DNA of 64,000 bases, taken from assembly GCA_903907985.1 (NCBI GenBank), contig CAIVQG010000055.1:2725-66724 (forward strand), read 5' to 3'. Source of the DNA: an uncultured delta proteobacterium (lineage in GTDB: Bacteria; Desulfobacterota; Syntrophia; Syntrophales; Smithellaceae). Positions 613 through 6,802 of this stretch are shown one piece after another. The notes beneath the pieces were generated by a model, which saw only the letters and a program-made list of their open reading frames with translations, had not been told where the DNA came from and made no database searches. Every line of letters begins with the position of its first letter. Position 1 is the stretch's first letter. Both the position numbers and the translations under genes were made by a program.

Positions 613-987
613 ATGAAGGTGTGTTTTGCAGTTCAAAAGGATGAAGGTATGGACAGCGCCGTATATGGCCATTTTGGATCAGCGCCCGCCTTTGTGGTTG
701 TTGATACAGAGCATCAAAGCATAGATACGGTCAGCAATAAGGATATGATCCATACACATGGGGCATGCAATCCGATTATGGCTTTGGGCGGTCAGAACGT
801 AGACGCTGTCATAGTAGGAGGTATCGGTGGCGGTGCCCTCATGAAGCTGAATGCTGCCGGTATAAAGGTATATGGGTCTATGGCTGGCACAATAAAAGGG
901 AATCTAGATTTACTAATGACGAAAAGATTACCCGAGCTTTCCATGGAGAATACCTGTGCAGGTCATCAAGGGGGATGCGGTCATTAG
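613..987 (+). CDS. NifX/NifB-C-terminal-like (dinitrogenase FeMo-cofactor-binding domain) protein
   Basis: The pattern GHFGSAPAFVVVD...VDAVIVGGIGGGA...GIKVY is present. An AGGAGG SD sits at 601-606. The gene starts 1 nt after the upstream stop, and a DUF134 gene is its typical neighbour. Confidence 0.75.
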   Translation: MKVCFAVQKDEGMDSAVYGHFGSAPAFVVVDTEHQSIDTVSNKDMIHTHGACNPIMALGGQNVDAVIVGGIGGGALMKLNAAGIKVYGSMAGTIKGNLDLLMTKRLPELSMENTCAGHQGGCGH

Positions 988-1042
988 GAACGGCAGCGTG
1001 CCGCAAAAACGAATAGATATATAATACATCAGGATAGAAACA

Positions 1043-1270
1043 ATGCCGATTTACGAATACCGCTGTAAGATATGCGGAGAAGTGAGTGAATTCCTTGTGC
1101 TGAGGGACAATGACCCCATAACGTGCAGAAAATGCGGCGGAGACAACCTGGGAAAACTGATGTCTGCTCACAGTTCGCTGACGACTTCCCCAAGCAGTGA
1201 GGCACCTCTTCCCGGCGAATGCTGCGGCGCTCCCAACACCTGTGGGAGACCGGGAAGCTGCTGTTCGTAA
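1043..1270 (+). CDS. FmdB-family zinc-ribbon protein (CxxC_CxxC_SSSS) with Cys-rich tail
   Basis: It starts MPIYEYRCKICG and carries a second CRKCGG pair. The C-terminus is GECCGAPNTCGRPGSCCS. Confidence 0.75.
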   Translation: MPIYEYRCKICGEVSEFLVLRDNDPITCRKCGGDNLGKLMSAHSSLTTSPSSEAPLPGECCGAPNTCGRPGSCCS

Positions 1271-1314
1271 TACGGATACAATTCATTCTACGGAATAAAA
1301 TACTGGAGGCAGTC

Positions 1315-2340
1315 ATGTTTTATGAGGAAAAGTGCGATTTTTGCGGTGAGTGTTTAGCGAAGTGCCATTACCTCGATTTCAATGCAGAAAATGGCGGTGA
1401 GGCCTTCCGGATGCTGGTCCAGGGGGAAAAGGTCGACTGGCTCTACGATTGCGTGACCTGTATTGCCTGTAACGAATTCTGTCCCAAGAACGCCCGGCCA
1501 TTTGACCTGATCCTTAGCAAGATGGAGGAGGCGGGAGATTTCACCGACGTGGCCCTGAGAAACCAAATGGCCGACCGGTTCAAGGCGGAGGGGGAACCGA
1601 AAGCCCTAGAGCCGAAGGACCGGGTCATGTCCATTTGCGTTATGGATGGGAGCATGCCCTGGGCGATCCAGGGAAGTCTCTTCCAGGAACTGCCGCTGCT
1701 CAAGGGTCGCCATTATTTCTGCAACGTACTGTTTGCCCACATGGGGGATGAATCCATCATGAGGGACCGTCTTCAAGGACTCGTGGACAACCTGGCCAAA
1801 TCAGGGGCGAAAGAAATTGTCTTTGTTCATGACGATTGCTACGCCCTCCTCAAAGGCATGGCCCCGGAATTCGGGATCATCCTGCCCTTTCGCCCCGTCT
1901 CCATTCTCGAATACCTGGCAGATTACCTGAAGGAGCATCCGGAGCGGATCAATAAGCTCAACATGAAGGTCGCCTATCAGCGCCCCTGCGCCTCCCGCTA
2001 CACGCCGGAGAAGGATCATTACTTAGATGAGATATTCAACCTTATCGGCGTAGAGCGCGTCGCCCGCCAGTACGATGGAATCAACGCCATCTGCTGCGGC
2101 GTGGAACTGGCCGGACCGAACCTTAAACTCTTTCCCCGGGGAAAGAACTTCGAGCCCTTCCGGGACAAAAACATTCAGGACGCCAAAGACAACGGCGCGG
2201 AGGCAATGGTCTATTTATGCCCCATGTGCTACCGGACTCTGGGCAAGAAGACAAAAGGCGCGGGAATGGTCAACTACATGATCAGCGACATTTGCCGCCT
2301 GGCCATCGGTGAAACCCTGCCGGAAGACAAACCGGCATAA
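1315..2340 (+). CDS. (Fe-S)-binding protein, HdrD/GlpC/LutA-like (2x[4Fe-4S] ferredoxin domain plus CCG Cys-rich domains)
   Basis: It has the ferredoxin motifs CDFCGECLAKC and CVTCIACNEFCP, followed by CCG-type motifs (QRPCASR, AICCG, LCPMCY). ATG 1315 is preceded by GGAGG at 1305-1309. The upstream part of the track ORF (from 1219) overlaps the FmdB gene. Confidence 0.8.
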   Translation: MFYEEKCDFCGECLAKCHYLDFNAENGGEAFRMLVQGEKVDWLYDCVTCIACNEFCPKNARPFDLILSKMEEAGDFTDVALRNQMADRFKAEGEPKALEPKDRVMSICVMDGSMPWAIQGSLFQELPLLKGRHYFCNVLFAHMGDESIMRDRLQGLVDNLAKSGAKEIVFVHDDCYALLKGMAPEFGIILPFRPVSILEYLADYLKEHPERINKLNMKVAYQRPCASRYTPEKDHYLDEIFNLIGVERVARQYDGINAICCGVELAGPNLKLFPRGKNFEPFRDKNIQDAKDNGAEAMVYLCPMCYRTLGKKTKGAGMVNYMISDICRLAIGETLPEDKPA

Positions 2341-2531
2341 GGGCGGCAGCAGCTGATCAAAAGGGAACGGATTAAATCCACCCACCGATCTCAATTAACC
2401 GCAGTTCCCGAAGTTATCAAGAAGGCGGTCACGGAATGCGGACCAGGAAGAAAGGTTTGTAAGCAGCGAAGCGGAAAGGTACGTGCAAATCATGAGGCAG
2501 TAAAAGGCATCAATTTACGGAGGAAAAGCAA

Positions 2532-3491
2532 ATGATCGTGACAAATCTTAAAGCCGTCGAAAAAATTGAAATCCTCTCCTTGCAGGATAACTATATTGAG
2601 ATGACGGCCACGGACAACAGCGCAGTCGTAACCAGGGCCATCCCCTTGAAGGAGGGATATTTCCGCCAGTCGGTGCTCGCGGAGCACGGCTTTTCCGCTG
2701 TCGTGAAGACGGTTGTCAATGGAAAGACCAGCAGCCTCCTCTTCGATTTCGGTTTTTCCGAAGATGGCGCCGCCTTCAACGCCGGGATGTTGGGGGCCGA
2801 CTTATCCTCGGTGGAAGCGGTCGTCCTCTCCCATGGACATAACGATCATACCGGCGGCTTCGCCAAATTGACGGAGATGCTCGGGAAGAGAAGCATCCCC
2901 TTTGTAGTCCACCCCAAGGTCTTCTGTCATTCCCGTTACCTGAAAGTGCCCGTAAGGGATATGAAGATCCACTTCTCGCCCCTGAGCAGGAAGCAGATCG
3001 CCGCCGCAGGACTGAAACTGATCGAATCCACCTCTCCTGTCACCATCCTTGAAGATACTGTCCTCTTTCTCGGCGAGATCCCCCATAAAACCGCTTTTGA
3101 AAAAGGTTTCCCCATCGCCCATTATCAGGAGGGCGGCCAGGAAAAGTGGGATCCCATCGAAGACGACACCTCGATAGTCATGAATCTGAAAAACAGAGGG
3201 CTGGTAGTCCTCTCAGGCTGCGCCCATGCGGGGATCGTGAACACGGTAAATTACGCCCGGGAGATCACGGGAATAGACAAGGTCCACGCCGTTATGGGGG
3301 GATTTCATCTCTCGGGTATTTACTTAGAGGGTATCATCGGCGCTACAGTTGAAGAAATGAAAAAGATTAATCCCGACCACATAATTCCCTGTCACTGCAC
3401 GGGACGCAAGGCGATAATGGAATTTGAAAAGGTTATGCCGGATAAGTTCATCCTAAATATGTCCGGGACAAAGATGACCTTTGCCGCATGA
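2532..3491 (+). CDS. MBL-fold metallo-hydrolase
   Basis: It carries the HxHxDH motif (SHGHNDHTGG), with later His/Asp ligands (GCAHAG, GGFH). A GGAGG SD lies upstream. Confidence 0.8.
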   Translation: MIVTNLKAVEKIEILSLQDNYIEMTATDNSAVVTRAIPLKEGYFRQSVLAEHGFSAVVKTVVNGKTSSLLFDFGFSEDGAAFNAGMLGADLSSVEAVVLSHGHNDHTGGFAKLTEMLGKRSIPFVVHPKVFCHSRYLKVPVRDMKIHFSPLSRKQIAAAGLKLIESTSPVTILEDTVLFLGEIPHKTAFEKGFPIAHYQEGGQEKWDPIEDDTSIVMNLKNRGLVVLSGCAHAGIVNTVNYAREITGIDKVHAVMGGFHLSGIYLEGIIGATVEEMKKINPDHIIPCHCTGRKAIMEFEKVMPDKFILNMSGTKMTFAA

Positions 3492-3892
3492 TTGGCAAGG
3501 CCGATGGCTTTTGCTGATGATAAGGACGGAAGATTGCGTTAATATTGCGTAATTACAGGCATAATCGCTATAAAATACAACAATTGCTTAATTATTATAA
3601 CTACATATAATAAATATGTTTATATAGGCTATAACATAATAATCATGCAGCGGAAGATGGGTTAAAGGGAACCGGGGATTGTGAACTTGCACTAATGTGG
3701 CTGGTTGACTACATTTGCTTTCCTAAACAAAAACATTTACGCTGTATTCTTGAAATATCCCAATGGCTTTATTTTCATATATATCTTTAATATTTTATTT
3801 TAGCTGGTTGCCGGTATAGCAATTTCTTTATATCTAAAATTATTCATTGAATAAAAACAAAAGAGCTATCCCGTTCCAGGGTGTTAAATGAA

Positions 3893-3972
3893 CTACCCCG
3901 CAGCAAGCTACGGGGCATCCCAGGATCGATAATTTTTCTACGAAGCAAGCTTCGGGGAATTTGACCCTGAGA
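3893..3972. repeat. tandem pair of REP-like hairpin units in an AT-rich intergenic region
   Basis: Unit 1 is CTACCCCGCAGCAAGCTACGGGGCATCC. Unit 2 is CTACGAAGCAAGCTTCGGGGAATTT. Each contains a short stem around a conserved GCAAGC core. Confidence 0.5.
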
Positions 3973-4054
3973 TATTAATGTTATTCACTAAAATATCATG
4001 ATAAACTTATCTGCAACTCATCAAGATTAAGTTTTTTTAAAGAGGCGATTTTCA

Positions 4055-5764
4055 ATGATGAAGTCAATCAAAAGCCAGTTGCTGATACTGATATTTGCAG
4101 CCGTTCTTCCTGCCTTCGGAATTATTATTTATTCAAATTATGAGCGCCAAAGCCATGAAATAGATATGGCCAAAGATAATGCCCTGATTATGTTGCAAGG
4201 CTTGGCAAATGACCATGAAAATGACATTGAAGTCACGCGAAAATTTCTCATGACCCTTGCCAAATTACCCGCCTTGCGGAACCAGAACGCTGCCGCCTGC
4301 ACCGAACTTTTCAGGGAACTGCTCAAGGACAATACGCAATATGCCACCATATTTGCGGCAGATAGCAAGGGGATGCTTTTTGCCAACGCTTTGCCTTCCG
4401 GCAATATCAGCATAAAACAAAGGAAATACTTTCAGAATGTGCTTCGGACAAAAGATTTTTCCGCGGGAGAGTACATTATAGGACCTGTCTCCCGCAGGCC
4501 GGGGCTGCCCTTTGCCTATCCGGTAATGGATTACAGCGGTCGGGTTATCGGAGTAGTTGGCATTAGCCTTGATCTCGAAAAATATGGCAGGAATTTTACC
4601 GCCATAACACAATTCCCCAAAGGTTCTACGCTCAACCTTCTTGACCGGAACTTTATACGTCTTTACCGGTATCCTGAACAGGGAAAGTATGTAGGGGAAG
4701 CGGATTTGCCCGAGATCGCAAGGCAATTATTGTCAGGTCCGCAACAAGGATTATTTACCTCAATCGGGGTCGATGGGATCAAGCGCCTTTTCGCATATAA
4801 ACGGTTTTCCCTGAGAGATTGTTCGTCACCATATCTCTATATGCGTGTCGGCATTCCCGAGGAACATACACTCGCTCAAGCTAAAAAAACTTTTCTCCGT
4901 CACATAGTATTGCTCATCAGTTGTTTAATTGCCACCCTATTGGTAGCTTTGTTTTTGGGGAACGTTCTTATTGTCAAAAGGCTCAACAGACTCATCGATG
5001 CATTTCGGCATGTAGGGCACGGTGATTTCACAGTACGTACCGGCGTAGACCACAAGGGAGGTGAATTGGGCAAGCTCGCCCATTCCTTTGATGAGATGGC
5101 TGAAGCTTTAGAAACCAAGGAATTGGAACGCAAGCAGGCCGAAGAGGCGTTGCGTCAGAGTGAGGTTTTTTTGAATACGCTGCTCAATTCGATACCAATT
5201 CCTGTTTTCTATAAGGGCAGGGATGGACGATACACGGGGTTCAACAGAGCCTTCGAGACATTCTTCGGTGCAACTAAGGAGCAGATGATCGGTAAGACCG
5301 TATTTGACATTAATCCGCCGGAACTTGCAAAAATCTATCACACCAAAGATAATGAGCTCTTTGAGGGCGGAAGCGAGCAGCATTACGAAACTCAGGTAAA
5401 GAACTCGCTTGGTGTAACAAGGGATGTCATCTTTAACAAGGCTGTTTTCACTGACAGTCAGGGAACCGTCAGCGGGCTGATTGGTGCAATCCTTGACATC
5501 ACCGAGCGCAAACGGGCAGATGAAGAGCGTGAGAAGTATATTTCAGAACTTCAGCAAGCTATGTCGAAAATCAAGACATTAAGTGGTCTGCTTCCGATAT
5601 GTGCATCCTGTAAAAAAATTCGTGATGATAAAGGTTACTGGAATCAGATAGAATCATTTATAAGAGATCACTCGGAAGCTGAATTCAGCCATGGGATTTG
5701 TCCAGAATGCGCGAAGAAGTTGTATCCTGATATTTTTGAAAAAATTCAAAACAAAAAAGATTGA
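4055..5764 (+). CDS. membrane sensor protein: Cache-like periplasmic domain, HAMP, PAS, and a C-terminal Cys4 (CxxC...CxxC) module; no kinase, GGDEF or HD output
   Basis: Two TM segments flank about 250 aa of periplasmic sequence. A HAMP-like region (RLNRLIDAFRHVGHGDF...) follows, then a PAS domain (IPIPVFYKGRDGRYTGFNRAF...DITERKRA). The tail is LLPICASCKKIRDDKGYWNQIESFIRDHSEAEFSHGICPECAKKLYP. Confidence 0.8.
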   Translation: MMKSIKSQLLILIFAAVLPAFGIIIYSNYERQSHEIDMAKDNALIMLQGLANDHENDIEVTRKFLMTLAKLPALRNQNAAACTELFRELLKDNTQYATIFAADSKGMLFANALPSGNISIKQRKYFQNVLRTKDFSAGEYIIGPVSRRPGLPFAYPVMDYSGRVIGVVGISLDLEKYGRNFTAITQFPKGSTLNLLDRNFIRLYRYPEQGKYVGEADLPEIARQLLSGPQQGLFTSIGVDGIKRLFAYKRFSLRDCSSPYLYMRVGIPEEHTLAQAKKTFLRHIVLLISCLIATLLVALFLGNVLIVKRLNRLIDAFRHVGHGDFTVRTGVDHKGGELGKLAHSFDEMAEALETKELERKQAEEALRQSEVFLNTLLNSIPIPVFYKGRDGRYTGFNRAFETFFGATKEQMIGKTVFDINPPELAKIYHTKDNELFEGGSEQHYETQVKNSLGVTRDVIFNKAVFTDSQGTVSGLIGAILDITERKRADEEREKYISELQQAMSKIKTLSGLLPICASCKKIRDDKGYWNQIESFIRDHSEAEFSHGICPECAKKLYPDIFEKIQNKKD

Positions 5765-5847
5765 TCATTTCTAATAGTTATTGTTGTTATTCAGCGATGC
5801 AGCTTGGTGTGACTTTGTAGATGTTATGATTGTCAAATCAAGTATAG

Positions 5848-6108
5848 GTCAGGACATATTATGGCTTCCACGCAATCCGGCATTTCATTAGCAGCTACCT
5901 GCACAACGTAAAGAAGGTATCCACCAATTCGCTGATGCAACTTTTGGGACATCTGGATGAAAAGACAACTCGAATATACGTCCATTCGCTACCCTCAACT
6001 TTAAGGGATGTGGCCACCAGCATTGAGGGAGAATTTACACAAAAAAATGAAGATCCGCACAGCAAAGCCGCACAGCAAAAAGAAAAGGAGCTAACCGGAA
6101 ACGGCTAA
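5848..6108 (+). pseudogene. C-terminal remnant of a tyrosine recombinase/phage integrase (about 86 codons, no start codon or N-terminal domains)
   Basis: Frame-1 translation gives ...TYYGFHAIRHFISSYLHNVKKVSTNSLMQLLGHLDEKTTRIYVHS...*. This contains the HxxRH box and the LLGH...Y catalytic-Tyr box. The frame is closed by TAG at 5845-5847. The remnant ends 15 nt from the tRNA-Pro 3' end. Confidence 0.65.
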
Positions 6109-6122
6109 CTCCTTGATTTAAC

Positions 6123-6199
<77 letters not shown>

Positions 6200-6211
6200 T
6201 TTTCAATATAT

Positions 6212-6802
6212 TTATCTGTTTAACAATAGACTGCTTTTAAATTTAGCAACTGCCTGCCCGCGATGACTTACTTTGTTCTTGATAGAGGCCGGTAATTCCG
6301 CGGCAGTCATTTCCAGTTCCGGAATCCAGAAAATCGGATCATAACCAAAGCCATTCGAACCGCGTTTTTCATCAATTATCTGCCCCTGCCATTTACCTTC
6401 GAAAGAGTCGAAAGTCCCGTCTTTTCGATAAAGAACTAAAACACAGTGAAAGGAAGCAGTTCGTTTATCCTGAGGTATATTTTTTAATTTAGTCAGGAGT
6501 TTGGCATTGTTTTCTTCATCCGTTGCCGCAGGTCCCGCATATCGCGCAGAATAGATACCCGGTTCTCCGTTTAAAATATTTACTATTAAACCGGAGTCAT
6601 CCGCCAATACTGTCTCACCGGTAAATTCGGATATAATTCTGGCTTTCTTTAGAGCGTTTTCCAGAAAACTCTGACCGTCTTCAATAATTTCCGGAACAGC
6701 AGAATAAGCGTTTAAAGAAAATAAATCAATCCCCGTTTCCGACAGCATTGACTTGACTTCTTTTACTTTCCCCCCATTTCCGGATGCAAAAACAATTTTC
6801 AT
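6212..6802 (-). CDS. rdgB: dITP/XTP pyrophosphatase (RdgB/HAM1 family)
   Basis: Motifs [22 protein letters not shown] and KNKVSHRG are present. ATG 6802 overlaps the rph stop (ATGA), so I preferred it to the TTG at 6811. Confidence 0.85.

What the first reader, a model, noticed from the sequence alone, without database searches (positions are those of the whole stretch)
4055..5764. Cache-HAMP-PAS membrane sensor ending in a Cys4 LLPICxxCKKIRD...HGICPEC module instead of any known output domain
The protein has a complete input and transmission architecture: TM, Cache-like domain, TM, HAMP, coiled coil, PAS. Where a DHp/CA kinase core or a GGDEF domain would follow, it has only a 58-aa tail (nt 5588-5761): LLPICASCKKIRDDKGYWNQIESFIRDHSEAEFSHGICPECAKKLYPDIFEKIQNKKD. 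This tail has two CxxC pairs. The helix just before it (ISELQQAMSKIKTLSGLL) resembles the position of a kinase H-box helix but has no His. I have seen this tail on PAS/GAF proteins of Deltaproteobacteria and spirochaetes, but I know of no assigned function. It may be a zinc-ribbon output that signals by protein or nucleic-acid binding. No partner gene is adjacent.
Basis: partly seen in the sequence, partly recalled or inferred. Interest (0 to 1): 0.55.

Follow-up and report, generated by a model that had tools for sequence, protein, structure and literature searches.

The report
Unnamed Cys4 output domain on sensors
A membrane sensor protein ends not in a kinase or other known signalling enzyme but in a tiny, extremely conserved four-cysteine module that occurs on tens of thousands of bacterial sensors and response regulators, has no name or known function, and so probably marks an unstudied way of passing signals into the cell.

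Summary
ORF 4055-5764 (+) encodes a 569-aa protein with the order TM, dCache_1, TM, HAMP, PAS, coiled coil, then a 58-aa tail with two CxxC pairs.

The tail matches nothing in Pfam, NCBIfam, PADLOC, PHROGs or PDB sequences. Foldseek against PDB and motif searches of the paper library also found nothing.

The tail is a real and very large family. A profile search found 24,244 50%-identity clusters at E<=1e-3, spread over many phyla. In all 72 ORFs I could delimit it is C-terminal. The Cys-pair spacing is exactly 29 aa in 345 of 345 tails. The distance from the PAS 'DIT' motif to 'PIC' is 33 aa in 197 of 210.

Among 96 homologues the tail core is 73% identical on average, against 31% for the adjacent PAS domain.

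In 188 proteins surveyed it accompanies only input or receiver domains (PAS, GAF, REC, HAMP, Cache, CHASE, MASE and others). It never accompanies another output domain. REC-coil-tail proteins lie directly downstream of histidine kinases. A 68%-identical PAS domain elsewhere carries a HisKA domain in its place.

I conclude it is an undescribed, probably metal-binding, coiled-coil-coupled output domain. It most likely docks on a conserved partner encoded elsewhere. That partner, the metal and the fold are all unproven.

The parts
4055..5764 (+). Whole gene: 569-aa membrane sensor (TM, dCache_1, TM, HAMP, helix, PAS, coiled coil, Cys4 tail), stop codon included
   Evidence: ORF list and translation. 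The identical protein is found on a second metagenome contig with the same right-hand neighbours.
4064..4141 (+). TM segment 1 (aa 4-29)
   Evidence: Kyte-Doolittle 19-aa window above 1.6.
4172..4801 (+). Periplasmic dCache_1 ligand-binding domain (aa 40-249)
   Evidence: Pfam PF02743, E=5.9e-16, above the gathering score.
4886..4984 (+). TM segment 2 (aa 278-310)
   Evidence: Hydropathy scan.
4970..5113 (+). HAMP domain (aa 306-353)
   Evidence: Pfam PF00672, E=3e-11.
5183..5515 (+). Cytoplasmic PAS domain (aa 377-487), preceded by a long helix (aa 356-379)
   Evidence: Pfam PAS_4, E=2.5e-20. AF2 model pLDDT 93-98, helix at model residues 2-25.
5495..5593 (+). Fixed-length helical (heptad) linker from the PAS 'DIT' motif (D481) to L513. 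It is part of the conserved module (ERExxIxELQxAxxxxKTLSGLL).
   Evidence: The DIT-to-PIC distance is 33 aa here and in 197 of 210 homologues. AF2 helix 129-151, pLDDT 92-98. Mean pairwise identity is 57%.
5588..5728 (+). Cys4 tail core (aa 512-558): LLPICASCKKIRDDKGYWNQIESFIRDHSEAEFSHGICPECAKKLYP
   Evidence: Invariant or near-invariant columns. Mean pairwise identity is 73% against 31% for the PAS domain. No hit in any family library.
5600..5611 (+). First CxxC knuckle (C516, C519)
   Evidence: Six-frame regex scan. 100% conserved.
5699..5710 (+). Second knuckle, C-P-x-C (C549, C552), preceded by invariant H546
   Evidence: The spacing to the first knuckle is 29 aa in 345 of 345 tails.
5729..5761 (+). 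Variable C-terminal extension (aa 559-569), not conserved
   Evidence: Mean pairwise identity 15%. Homologues carry 7-39 aa after the last Cys.

Best explanation
The protein is a one-component-type transmembrane sensor. A periplasmic dCache_1 domain binds a small ligand, and the signal passes through TM2, HAMP, a helix, a cytoplasmic PAS domain and a fixed-length parallel coiled coil. The coiled coil ends directly in a roughly 47-aa module, most likely a metal (Zn) centre held by four Cys. Together with its leading helix, this module is a self-contained output (effector) domain of a previously undescribed family. It is used interchangeably with kinase cores by sensors, and it also serves as the output of response regulators. 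Because it hangs on a dimeric coiled coil of invariant length, input signals should change the relative geometry of the two modules in the dimer. I propose that this gates docking onto one conserved partner encoded elsewhere in the genome, most probably a protein. Many different sensors would then converge on the same target, as chemoreceptor tips converge on CheA/CheW or PP2C sensors converge on one partner-switching protein. Shown here: the architecture, the family size, the strictly C-terminal position, exclusive pairing with input and receiver domains, placement downstream of kinases, the rigid spacing and the extreme conservation. Inferred, not shown: metal binding, the fold, dimerisation, and the existence and nature of the partner.
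For: The architecture is complete and has no known output domain. The family holds 24,244 clusters at 50% identity with E<=1e-3, of which 20,080 reach E<=1e-10. A genome scan found at least 594 loci across many phyla. The tail is C-terminal in 72 of 72 ORFs. In Pfam censuses of 72 and 116 tail proteins, the partners are only PAS, GAF, REC, HAMP, Cache, CHASE, MASE3/6, PocR, MEDS, Tll0287, Reg_prop/Y_Y_Y and SBP_bac_3. HATPase_c, GGDEF, EAL, HD and HTH never appear. REC-coil-tail proteins of 212-328 aa lie immediately downstream of HisKA/HATPase_c or HisKA_2/HWE kinases in L048, L061 and L018. P0339 carries a 68%-identical PAS domain fused to HisKA, with the swap at the DIT junction. The spacing is rigid: Cys pairs 29 aa apart in 345 of 345, and DIT-to-PIC 33 aa in 197 of 210. 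The linker carries a heptad pattern up to the residue before P-I-C and is modelled as a helix at pLDDT 92-98. The tail core is 73% identical on average, against 31% for the PAS domain in the same 96 proteins, and polar surface residues (K520, R523, D524, D525, Q531, E533, H539, S540, H546) are conserved too. The core has a net charge of about 0 (mean -0.26), which is unlike a basic nucleic-acid-binding finger. No neighbouring gene is conserved in 80 loci, so any partner is encoded elsewhere.
Against: No partner has been identified, and none can be inferred from gene neighbourhood. The tail is modelled only at pLDDT 54-73, and the two models disagree on its beta elements, so even the fold class is uncertain. 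No metal was measured. Zn, Fe and no metal at all remain open. Copy number per genome could not be measured, so the idea that many sensors converge on one target is inferred. It rests on the diversity of architectures and on adjacent or tandem copies (L071, P0122, P0123, P0340). The sequences I could inspect are the best-scoring hits, so conservation is probably overestimated for the family as a whole. Most response-regulator outputs are DNA-binding, which favours the rival explanation a priori.
Confidence: 0.45

Rival explanations
1. The tail is a dimeric zinc-finger DNA-binding (or RNA-binding) domain. Tail proteins would then be one-component transcription factors and response regulators that bind a dyad-symmetric site when the coiled coil brings the two fingers into register.
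For: About two thirds of response-regulator outputs are DNA-binding (established knowledge), and the tail is a response-regulator output. Cys4 knuckle domains often bind nucleic acids. Conserved basic residues follow both knuckles, as CKKIR and CAKK. The archaeal output domain HalOD2, which is helical with two CXXC motifs, was likewise predicted to bind DNA or RNA (PMC5847659). A dimeric coiled coil is an obvious way to present two half-site readers.
Against: The net charge of the core is about 0 (mean -0.26). The putative reading surface is nearly identical in proteins with unrelated inputs and from different phyla (73% identity). All of them would therefore read the same DNA sequence, unlike HTH outputs, whose recognition helices diverge between paralogues. 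No conserved adjacent target genes were found. No similarity to any DNA-binding family or structure was found.
Confidence: 0.25
2. The tail is a second input rather than an output. It would be a redox- or metal-sensitive Cys4(His) centre, either a rubredoxin-like Fe(Cys)4 site or an oxidant-labile Zn site as in RsrA or Hsp33. Its oxidation or metal loss would change the oligomeric state of the protein.
For: The tail has four invariant Cys plus invariant H546 and near-invariant H539. The knuckles are C-x2-C and C-P-x-C, 29 aa apart, which by my recollection is the same spacing as in clostridial rubredoxin. The distribution leans towards anaerobes (Thermodesulfobacteriota, Nitrospirota, Chloroflexota). 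From my own knowledge, regulatory rubredoxin-like domains exist, for example in PknG.
Against: Under this reading the proteins would have no output at all, yet the tail occupies the output position in kinase/response-regulator operons and in kinase-swap paralogues. hhalign against rubredoxin aligns only the 7-residue CPxC knuckle, at 2% probability. Pfam Rubredoxin and zf-HC2 were not hit. Strong conservation of non-ligand surface residues is not needed for a simple thiol switch.
Confidence: 0.1
3. The tail is a miniature catalytic or small-ligand-binding domain, for example one that makes, degrades or binds a nucleotide messenger, with an active site formed at the dimer interface.
For: Conservation of many polar residues (K, R, D, D, Q, E, H, S, S, H) is more typical of active or ligand sites than of structural zinc ribbons. 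Other outputs that many different sensors share (GGDEF, EAL, cyclases) are enzymes. A weak, non-significant local resemblance exists between GYWNQIESYIR and an EXOG nuclease segment (E=0.45).
Against: A 47-aa core is very small for catalysis. No similarity to any enzyme family was found, and HNH/His-Me families did not appear even below threshold. The distance from H539 to the second knuckle (9 aa) cannot hold the second strand and Asn of an HNH motif (sequence reasoning).
Confidence: 0.07
4. The tail is only a metal-stapled cap that stabilises the coiled-coil dimer. The proteins would signal by heterodimerising with, or titrating, bona fide kinases that share similar PAS/coiled-coil modules, acting as kinase-less decoys.
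For: Close PAS paralogues carrying a HisKA core exist (P0339). The first knuckle starts immediately after the last heptad position, so a zinc-hook-like inter-subunit site is geometrically possible (inference). Rad50 hook entries appear as very weak PDB hits (E=1.7-1.8).
Against: A cap would not need 73% identity over 47 residues, including exposed polar positions. REC-tail response regulators paired with their own kinase do not fit a decoy role. P0339 comes from a different sample, so there is no evidence that the two proteins coexist.
Confidence: 0.08

Closest known systems
Sensor histidine kinases with dCache-HAMP-PAS inputs (HisKA/HATPase_c transmitters)
   Same: The input and transmission architecture is identical, and the PAS 'DITxRKxAEE' junction into a coiled coil is the same. 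A 68%-identical PAS domain is found fused to HisKA in P0339. NCBIfam kinase models align only over the HAMP/PAS part.
   Different: There is no DHp His, no HATPase_c and no ATP-binding boxes. The transmitter is replaced by a 47-aa Cys4 module.
HalOD2, a predicted Zn-finger output domain of haloarchaeal response regulators (Galperin et al. 2018, PMC5847659)
   Same: Both are small response-regulator output domains with a helical N-terminal part followed by two conserved CXXC motifs, and both have unknown function.
   Different: HalOD2 is restricted to a few halobacteria and has a 20-25 aa spacing. The tail here has a fixed 29-aa spacing, is bacterial, spans many phyla and holds at least 24,000 clusters. 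No Pfam hit to any output-domain model was found.
Chemoreceptor (MCP) signalling tip: a functional analogy only
   Same: Many different input domains connect through coiled coils of constrained length to a short, extremely conserved module. No partner gene is linked to it. In MCPs the tip docks on shared CheA/CheW (established knowledge).
   Different: There is no MCPsignal domain, no methylation helices and no hairpin. The module is a Cys4 knuckle domain, not a helical hairpin.
Cys4 knuckle folds: zinc ribbon, treble clef, rubredoxin-like
   Same: There are two CxxC-type knuckles, and the second is C-P-x-C at the start of a helix. AF2 places short strands around the first knuckle. Weak sub-threshold Pfam hits are all to zinc-ribbon-type families: DZR_2, Zn_ribbon_HMPTM, zf-C4pol and Fin.
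   Different: No hit is significant. Foldseek against PDB gives nothing with E<1, and the profile search of PDB sequences gives nothing. hhalign against rubredoxin aligns only 7 columns. There is an extra conserved helix (YWNQIExYIRDH) between the knuckles.
ZAS anti-sigma domains (H-x3-C-x2-C) and Fin/DksA-type coiled-coil plus Zn-finger RNA-polymerase binders
   Same: A helical segment sits next to a His/Cys metal site. The H-x2-C-x2-C string resembles the ZAS motif. Fin appears as a sub-threshold Pfam hit in 7 of 87 members. All of these act by protein-protein docking.
   Different: The motif spacing differs. zf-HC2 and zf-dskA_traR were not hit. No sigma-factor gene is adjacent.

Membership tests
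dCache_1 / HAMP / PAS modular sensor | Pfam domains above gathering score in the order TM, Cache, TM, HAMP, PAS | tested here: met
   PF02743 59.2 bits (cut-off 45), PF00672 43.9 bits (cut-off 25), PF08448 73.2 bits (cut-off 23.1). TM segments at aa 4-29 and 278-310.
Sensor histidine kinase | DHp domain with phospho-acceptor His (HisKA, HisKA_2, HisKA_3 or HWE) | tested here: not met
   No HisKA-type hit. There is no His in aa 488-515. NCBIfam kinase models match only HAMP/PAS and fall far below their cut-offs.
Sensor histidine kinase | HATPase_c catalytic domain | tested here: not met
   Absent. Only 58 aa follow the coiled coil.
c-di-GMP enzymes, cyclases, MCPs | GGDEF, EAL, HD-GYP, Guanylate_cyc or MCPsignal domain | tested here: not met
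   None found in the window protein, nor in 188 tail-bearing homologues.
HalOD2 (archaeal response-regulator Zn-finger output) | Match to the family model; two CXXC motifs 20-25 aa apart; haloarchaeal | tested here: not met
   No Pfam hit at E<=1. The spacing is fixed at 29 aa. The hosts are bacterial.
Zinc ribbon / treble-clef / rubredoxin-like Cys4 fold | Two Cys knuckles conserved in all members | tested here: met
   C516, C519, C549 and C552 are invariant in A1, A2 and A4.
Zinc ribbon / treble-clef / rubredoxin-like Cys4 fold | Three-dimensional fold matches a known knuckle fold | tested here: inconclusive
   AF2 gives pLDDT 73 for the tail alone and 54-71 within the PAS-tail model, and the two models differ in their beta elements. 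The best Foldseek PDB hit has E=2.1. hhalign against rubredoxin gives 2% probability.
Zinc ribbon / treble-clef / rubredoxin-like Cys4 fold | Stoichiometric metal (Zn or Fe) bound by the four Cys | not testable with these tools
   Requires ICP-MS, PAR assay or UV-vis on purified protein.
ZAS anti-sigma domain (zf-HC2) | H-x3-C-x2-C motif, family model match, adjacent sigma-factor gene | tested here: not met
   The motif is H-x2-C-x2-C. No zf-HC2 hit. The neighbours are an MBL-fold protein, Ham1, RNase PH and an amidase.
HNH / His-Me finger nuclease | Beta-beta-alpha-Me motif with catalytic His and Asn between two CxxC pairs; family model match | tested here: not met
   No HNH-family hit even at E<=1. 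Only 9 aa separate H539 from the second knuckle. The EXOG resemblance is non-significant (E=0.45).
DUF3039 | Full-length match above gathering score | tested here: not met
   The hits recur (67 of 87 members), but they cover only about 11 residues (LPICxxCKKIR) and the best E is 0.0019, below the 22.7-bit cut-off.
Response-regulator output domain (functional class) | Occurs C-terminal to REC in proteins encoded next to a histidine kinase | tested here: met
   In L048 and L061 a kinase gene abuts or overlaps the start of a REC-tail gene, and L018 has the same arrangement. REC was found in 13 of 72 and 13 of 116 tail proteins.

The most novel reading that the evidence does not exclude
The coil-plus-Cys4 module defines a major, unrecognised class of bacterial signal transmitter. 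Thousands of chemically diverse sensors and kinase/response-regulator pairs, in at least a dozen phyla, would feed into one conserved and still unidentified cellular target through a metal-stapled docking domain. That would be a new convergent signalling pathway, comparable in logic to chemotaxis arrays or partner-switching cascades.
Probability: 0.3. Interest if true: 0.85.

Novelty: new variant of a known kind. Interest (0 to 1): 0.65.

Why it matters
Bacterial signal transduction is usually catalogued by output domain: kinase, DNA-binding, c-di-GMP enzymes, chemotaxis, phosphatases. Here is an output-position module with more than 24,000 sequence clusters that no family library names, and public annotation calls its carriers only 'PAS domain-containing protein'. 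These proteins are therefore counted as sensors with no known output, and whatever they control is invisible to genome-based predictions. This gap is largest in sulfate reducers, syntrophs, Nitrospirota and spirochaetes. The module's small size, fixed geometry and extreme conservation make it an easy experimental target: a 75-aa construct, four Cys to mutate, one partner to fish for. Finding the partner would assign a function to thousands of orphan sensors at once. It would also provide a compact new output part for synthetic signalling circuits.

Tried and rejected
- **Family libraries.** Pfam, NCBIfam, PADLOC and PHROGs scans of the tail gave no family. Only sub-threshold zinc-ribbon-like noise and an 11-residue DUF3039 overlap appeared.
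- **Solved structures.** A single-sequence search and a profile search of PDB sequences found nothing. Foldseek of the tail model against PDB gave a best E of 2.1.
- **Literature.** String searches for tail motifs (CKKIRD, LPICAS, SHGICP, GYWNQIE and others) returned 0 relevant papers. Keyword searches on zinc-ribbon or Cys-rich outputs, the S-helix paper and Galperin's censuses contained no description of it.
- **Gene-neighbourhood search for a partner.** All-against-all clustering of 759 ORFs from 80 loci found no non-tail family in more than 5 loci.
- **Standalone small tail proteins.** Rejected. The short ORFs are mostly split or mis-started longer genes. In L084 a PAS gene ends at 4000 and the tail ORF starts at 4001; L042 and L034 are similar.
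- **Internal tails.** Tails that are not C-terminal turned out to be tandem [sensor-tail][sensor-tail] fusions.
- **Plasmid-borne or mobile origin.** There is only one plasmid hit, an IS21-disrupted GAF...tail gene in Dongshaea marina.
- **Rubredoxin homology.** I suspected it from the equal 29-aa spacing, but hhalign gives 2% probability over 7 columns.
- **HNH/His-Me nuclease idea.** It arose from the weak EXOG resemblance. I rejected it on motif geometry and the absence of hits.
- **Source organism.** Identification by exact look-up returned no names.
- **Upstream spacer.** No Rfam family matches in the spacer, and there is no excess of promoter-like sites.
Full report
**Observation.** The stated coordinates hold a single long ORF, 4055..5764 on the + strand.
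- Pfam places dCache_1 at aa 40-249, HAMP at aa 306-353 and PAS at aa 377-487, all above gathering scores.
- Hydropathy gives two transmembrane segments, aa 4-29 and aa 278-310, which bracket the Cache domain. The Cache domain is therefore periplasmic and everything after aa 310 is cytoplasmic.
- No kinase, cyclase, phosphodiesterase, MCP or DNA-binding domain is detected. NCBIfam kinase models align only with the HAMP/PAS part and fall far below their cut-offs.
- The last 58 aa read LLPICASCKKIRDDKGYWNQIESFIRDHSEAEFSHGICPECAKKLYPDIFEKIQNKKD, as reported.
- This tail holds four of the protein's seven Cys.
- It is the only CxxC...H..CxxC string of this kind in the six-frame translation of the window.

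**The tail is a real, very large, unnamed family.**
- A search with the last 80 aa returned at least 2,558 proteins at 70-90% identity over the tail.
- A profile built from 87 of them, scored against 1.84 billion 50%-identity representatives, found 24,244 proteins at E<=1e-3, 20,080 at E<=1e-10 and 7,615 at E<=1e-30.
- The hosts include Thermodesulfobacteriota, Nitrospirota, Spirochaetota, Chloroflexota, Acidobacteriota, Verrucomicrobiota, Myxococcota, Calditrichota, Ignavibacteriae, Hydrogenedentota, Nitrospinae and a Chromatiaceae genome. Planctomycetota and Elusimicrobia appear among named proteins.
- The tail matches nothing in Pfam (2025), NCBIfam (June 2026), PADLOC or PHROGs.
- It also matches nothing among PDB sequences, by single sequence or by profile.
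- Public sources name its carriers only 'PAS domain(-containing/S-box) protein' or 'hypothetical protein'.
- Full-text searches for tail strings, and keyword searches on zinc or Cys-rich outputs, found no description.
- The nearest described thing is HalOD2, a haloarchaeal response-regulator output with a helical part and two CXXC motifs 20-25 aa apart, also of unknown function (PMC5847659). It is a different family: no model match, a different spacing and different hosts.

**Anatomy of the module.**
- The invariant or near-invariant positions are L, G, P-I-C-x-x-C-K-x-I-R-D-D-x-G-Y-W-x-Q-I-E-x-Y-I-x-x-H-S-x-A-x-F-S-H-x-x-C-P-x-C-x-x-x-L-Y-P.
- The two Cys pairs are exactly 29 aa apart in 345 of 345 tails.
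- The distance from the 'DIT' motif that closes the PAS fold to the P of 'PIC' is exactly 33 aa in 197 of 210 cases, this protein included.
- The intervening sequence (ERExLIxELQxALxxVKTLSGLL) has hydrophobic residues at 4-3-4-3-4 spacing up to the residue before P-I-C. It is itself 57% identical on average. AF2 models it as one helix at pLDDT 92-98.
- The tail core is 73% identical on average among 96 homologues whose PAS domains are only 31% identical. The residues after Y-P are 15% identical.
- The net charge of the 47-aa core averages -0.26.
- AF2 gives only moderate to low confidence for the tail: pLDDT 73 alone, and 54-71 within the PAS-tail model. The two models agree on two helices, one over YWNQIESFIRDH and one starting at the C-P-x-C knuckle, but they disagree on the strands.
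- Foldseek against PDB found nothing with E<1.
- The spacing equals my recollection of the rubredoxin spacing, but hhalign aligns only the 7-residue CPxC knuckle at 2% probability.
- The fold class (zinc ribbon, treble clef or rubredoxin-like) is therefore plausible but not established, and the metal is unknown.

**It behaves as an output domain.**
- In 72 ORFs delimited in 80 genomic loci the tail is always C-terminal, with 7-39 variable residues after the last Cys.
- Apparent internal tails are tandem [sensor-tail][sensor-tail] proteins.
- Apparent standalone tails are split or mis-started genes.
- Pfam censuses of those 72 proteins and of 116 representatives found only input or receiver domains. 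These were PAS (most), REC (13 and 13), GAF, HAMP, Cache types, CHASE, MASE3, MASE6, PocR, MEDS, Tll0287-like, Reg_prop/Y_Y_Y, SBP_bac_3 and a 7TM region.
- No other output domain appeared in either census.
- The tail follows PAS, REC, GAF, HAMP or a bare membrane domain directly.
- REC-coil-tail proteins of 212-328 aa lie immediately downstream of HisKA/HATPase_c or HisKA_2/HWE kinases in L048, L061 and L018. They are therefore response regulators whose effector is the tail.
- P0339 has a PAS domain 68% identical to the one here, up to 'DITDRKRAEE', and then continues into a HisKA H-box. The tail and a kinase core are thus alternative endings at the same junction.

**Context.**
- The gene stands alone. 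Upstream lies a 563-bp, 35-40% GC spacer. Downstream lie an 86-aa C-terminal remnant of a tyrosine recombinase (Pfam Phage_integrase, E=9.5e-6) and a tRNA-Pro gene.
- The neighbours are housekeeping or unrelated: an MBL-fold protein, Ham1/RdgB, RNase PH, an amidase and RelA/SpoT.
- Clustering of 759 ORFs from the 80 related loci found no non-tail family in more than 5 loci. The genome gives no positional clue to a partner.

**Mechanism.** The shown facts are a fixed-length coiled coil ending in the module, the output position, use by both one-component sensors and response regulators, near-total conservation including exposed polar residues, a neutral charge and no linked partner.
- They fit best a metal-stapled docking domain presented as a dimer. 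Its geometry would be set by the upstream sensor, and it would engage one conserved partner encoded elsewhere. That is the same convergent logic as chemoreceptor tips or partner-switching phosphatases. I put this at about 0.45.
- The main rival is a dimeric zinc-finger nucleic-acid binder (about 0.25). It is favoured by precedent and by the basic residues after each knuckle. It is disfavoured by the neutral charge and by the fact that unrelated sensors would all read the same sequence.
- Lesser rivals are a redox or metal-sensing centre, a miniature enzyme or ligand site, and a mere dimer cap on decoy sensors.
- None of these can be excluded computationally here. Metal analysis, a dimer structure, partner fishing, DAP-seq and genome-wide phylogenetic profiling would decide between them.

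**Verdict.** What is there is an undescribed, abundant, highly constrained output-domain family on an otherwise ordinary Cache-HAMP-PAS sensor.
- I rate it a new variant of a known kind: a modular bacterial signalling protein with a new effector module. It is not categorically new, because no new mechanism has been demonstrated.
- Two caveats apply. The sequences I could inspect are the best-scoring family members, so conservation is probably overestimated. A description in literature outside the searchable library cannot be ruled out.

Noticed in passing
window 5848-6105 (+) and 6123-6199 (-): An 86-aa C-terminal fragment of a tyrosine recombinase lies directly downstream of the sensor gene. 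It has the HxxRH and LGH...Y boxes (Pfam Phage_integrase, E=9.5e-6) but no N-terminal part. It abuts a tRNA-Pro(TGG) gene. This looks like the scar of an element integrated at tRNA-Pro, so the sensor gene may be leftover cargo.
   Followed up: partly
window 3492-4054: An unusually long (563 bp), AT-rich (GC 0.35-0.40) spacer lies upstream of the sensor gene. It carries two copies of a GC-rich hairpin motif, GCAAGCTNCGGGG, at 3903-3915 and 3945-3957. That is 2 matches against 0.31 expected, and 2 of 100 shuffles reach 2. No Rfam family matches, and there is no excess of promoter-like sites.
   Followed up: partly
P0122, P0123, P0124, P0126, P0129, P0340/P0342; L071:2244-4436 and 4618-6225: Tail-bearing modules occur as adjacent genes and as single proteins made of two complete [input-coil-tail] units. 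In the Elusimicrobia protein P0340 the first tail has a degenerate second knuckle (FSYGMCSDC: His to Tyr, Pro to Ser), while the second tail is intact.
   Followed up: partly
L084:3077-4330; L042:4336-6225: Short 'standalone' tail ORFs of 85-126 aa in long-read MAG contigs are preceded in the same orientation by a PAS gene that ends one base, or a few bases, before them. They are probably single genes split by a stop codon, a frameshift or an assembly error, not a distinct small-protein form.
   Followed up: yes
L082 (Dongshaea marina plasmid NZ_CP028898.1, 32154-40336): The only plasmid hit in PLSDB is a gammaproteobacterial GAF...tail gene interrupted by an IS21 element inside the first knuckle. 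The remnant (CCKSIRDPEGKWQQLESYISKHSETEFSHTFCPSCFEERYGEV) is unannotated and is a divergent tail of about 47% identity that keeps the key residues.
   Followed up: yes
P0339 (314 aa, metagenome): A protein whose PAS domain is 68% identical to the window's PAS domain continues after 'DITDRKRAEE' into a HisKA H-box (FLANMSHELRTPLN) instead of the tail. P0351 continues into another PAS domain. This shows recent shuffling of endings on the same sensor module.
   Followed up: yes
window aa 527-537 of the ORF (nt 5633-5665): The segment GYWNQIESFIR resembles 'SGYWNRIEMYCR' in the mitochondrial nuclease EXOG (PDB 5t3v and others). The profile E-value is only 0.45 and the stretch is short, so I treat it as chance.
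   Followed up: partly
window 613-3491: Upstream genes on the + strand encode a NifX/NifB-type FeMo-cofactor-binding-fold protein, a CCG plus 4Fe-4S (HdrD-like) protein and an MBL-fold hydrolase. Their GC content is higher (0.51-0.56) than that of the sensor gene and of the genes to its right (0.40-0.46).
   Followed up: no
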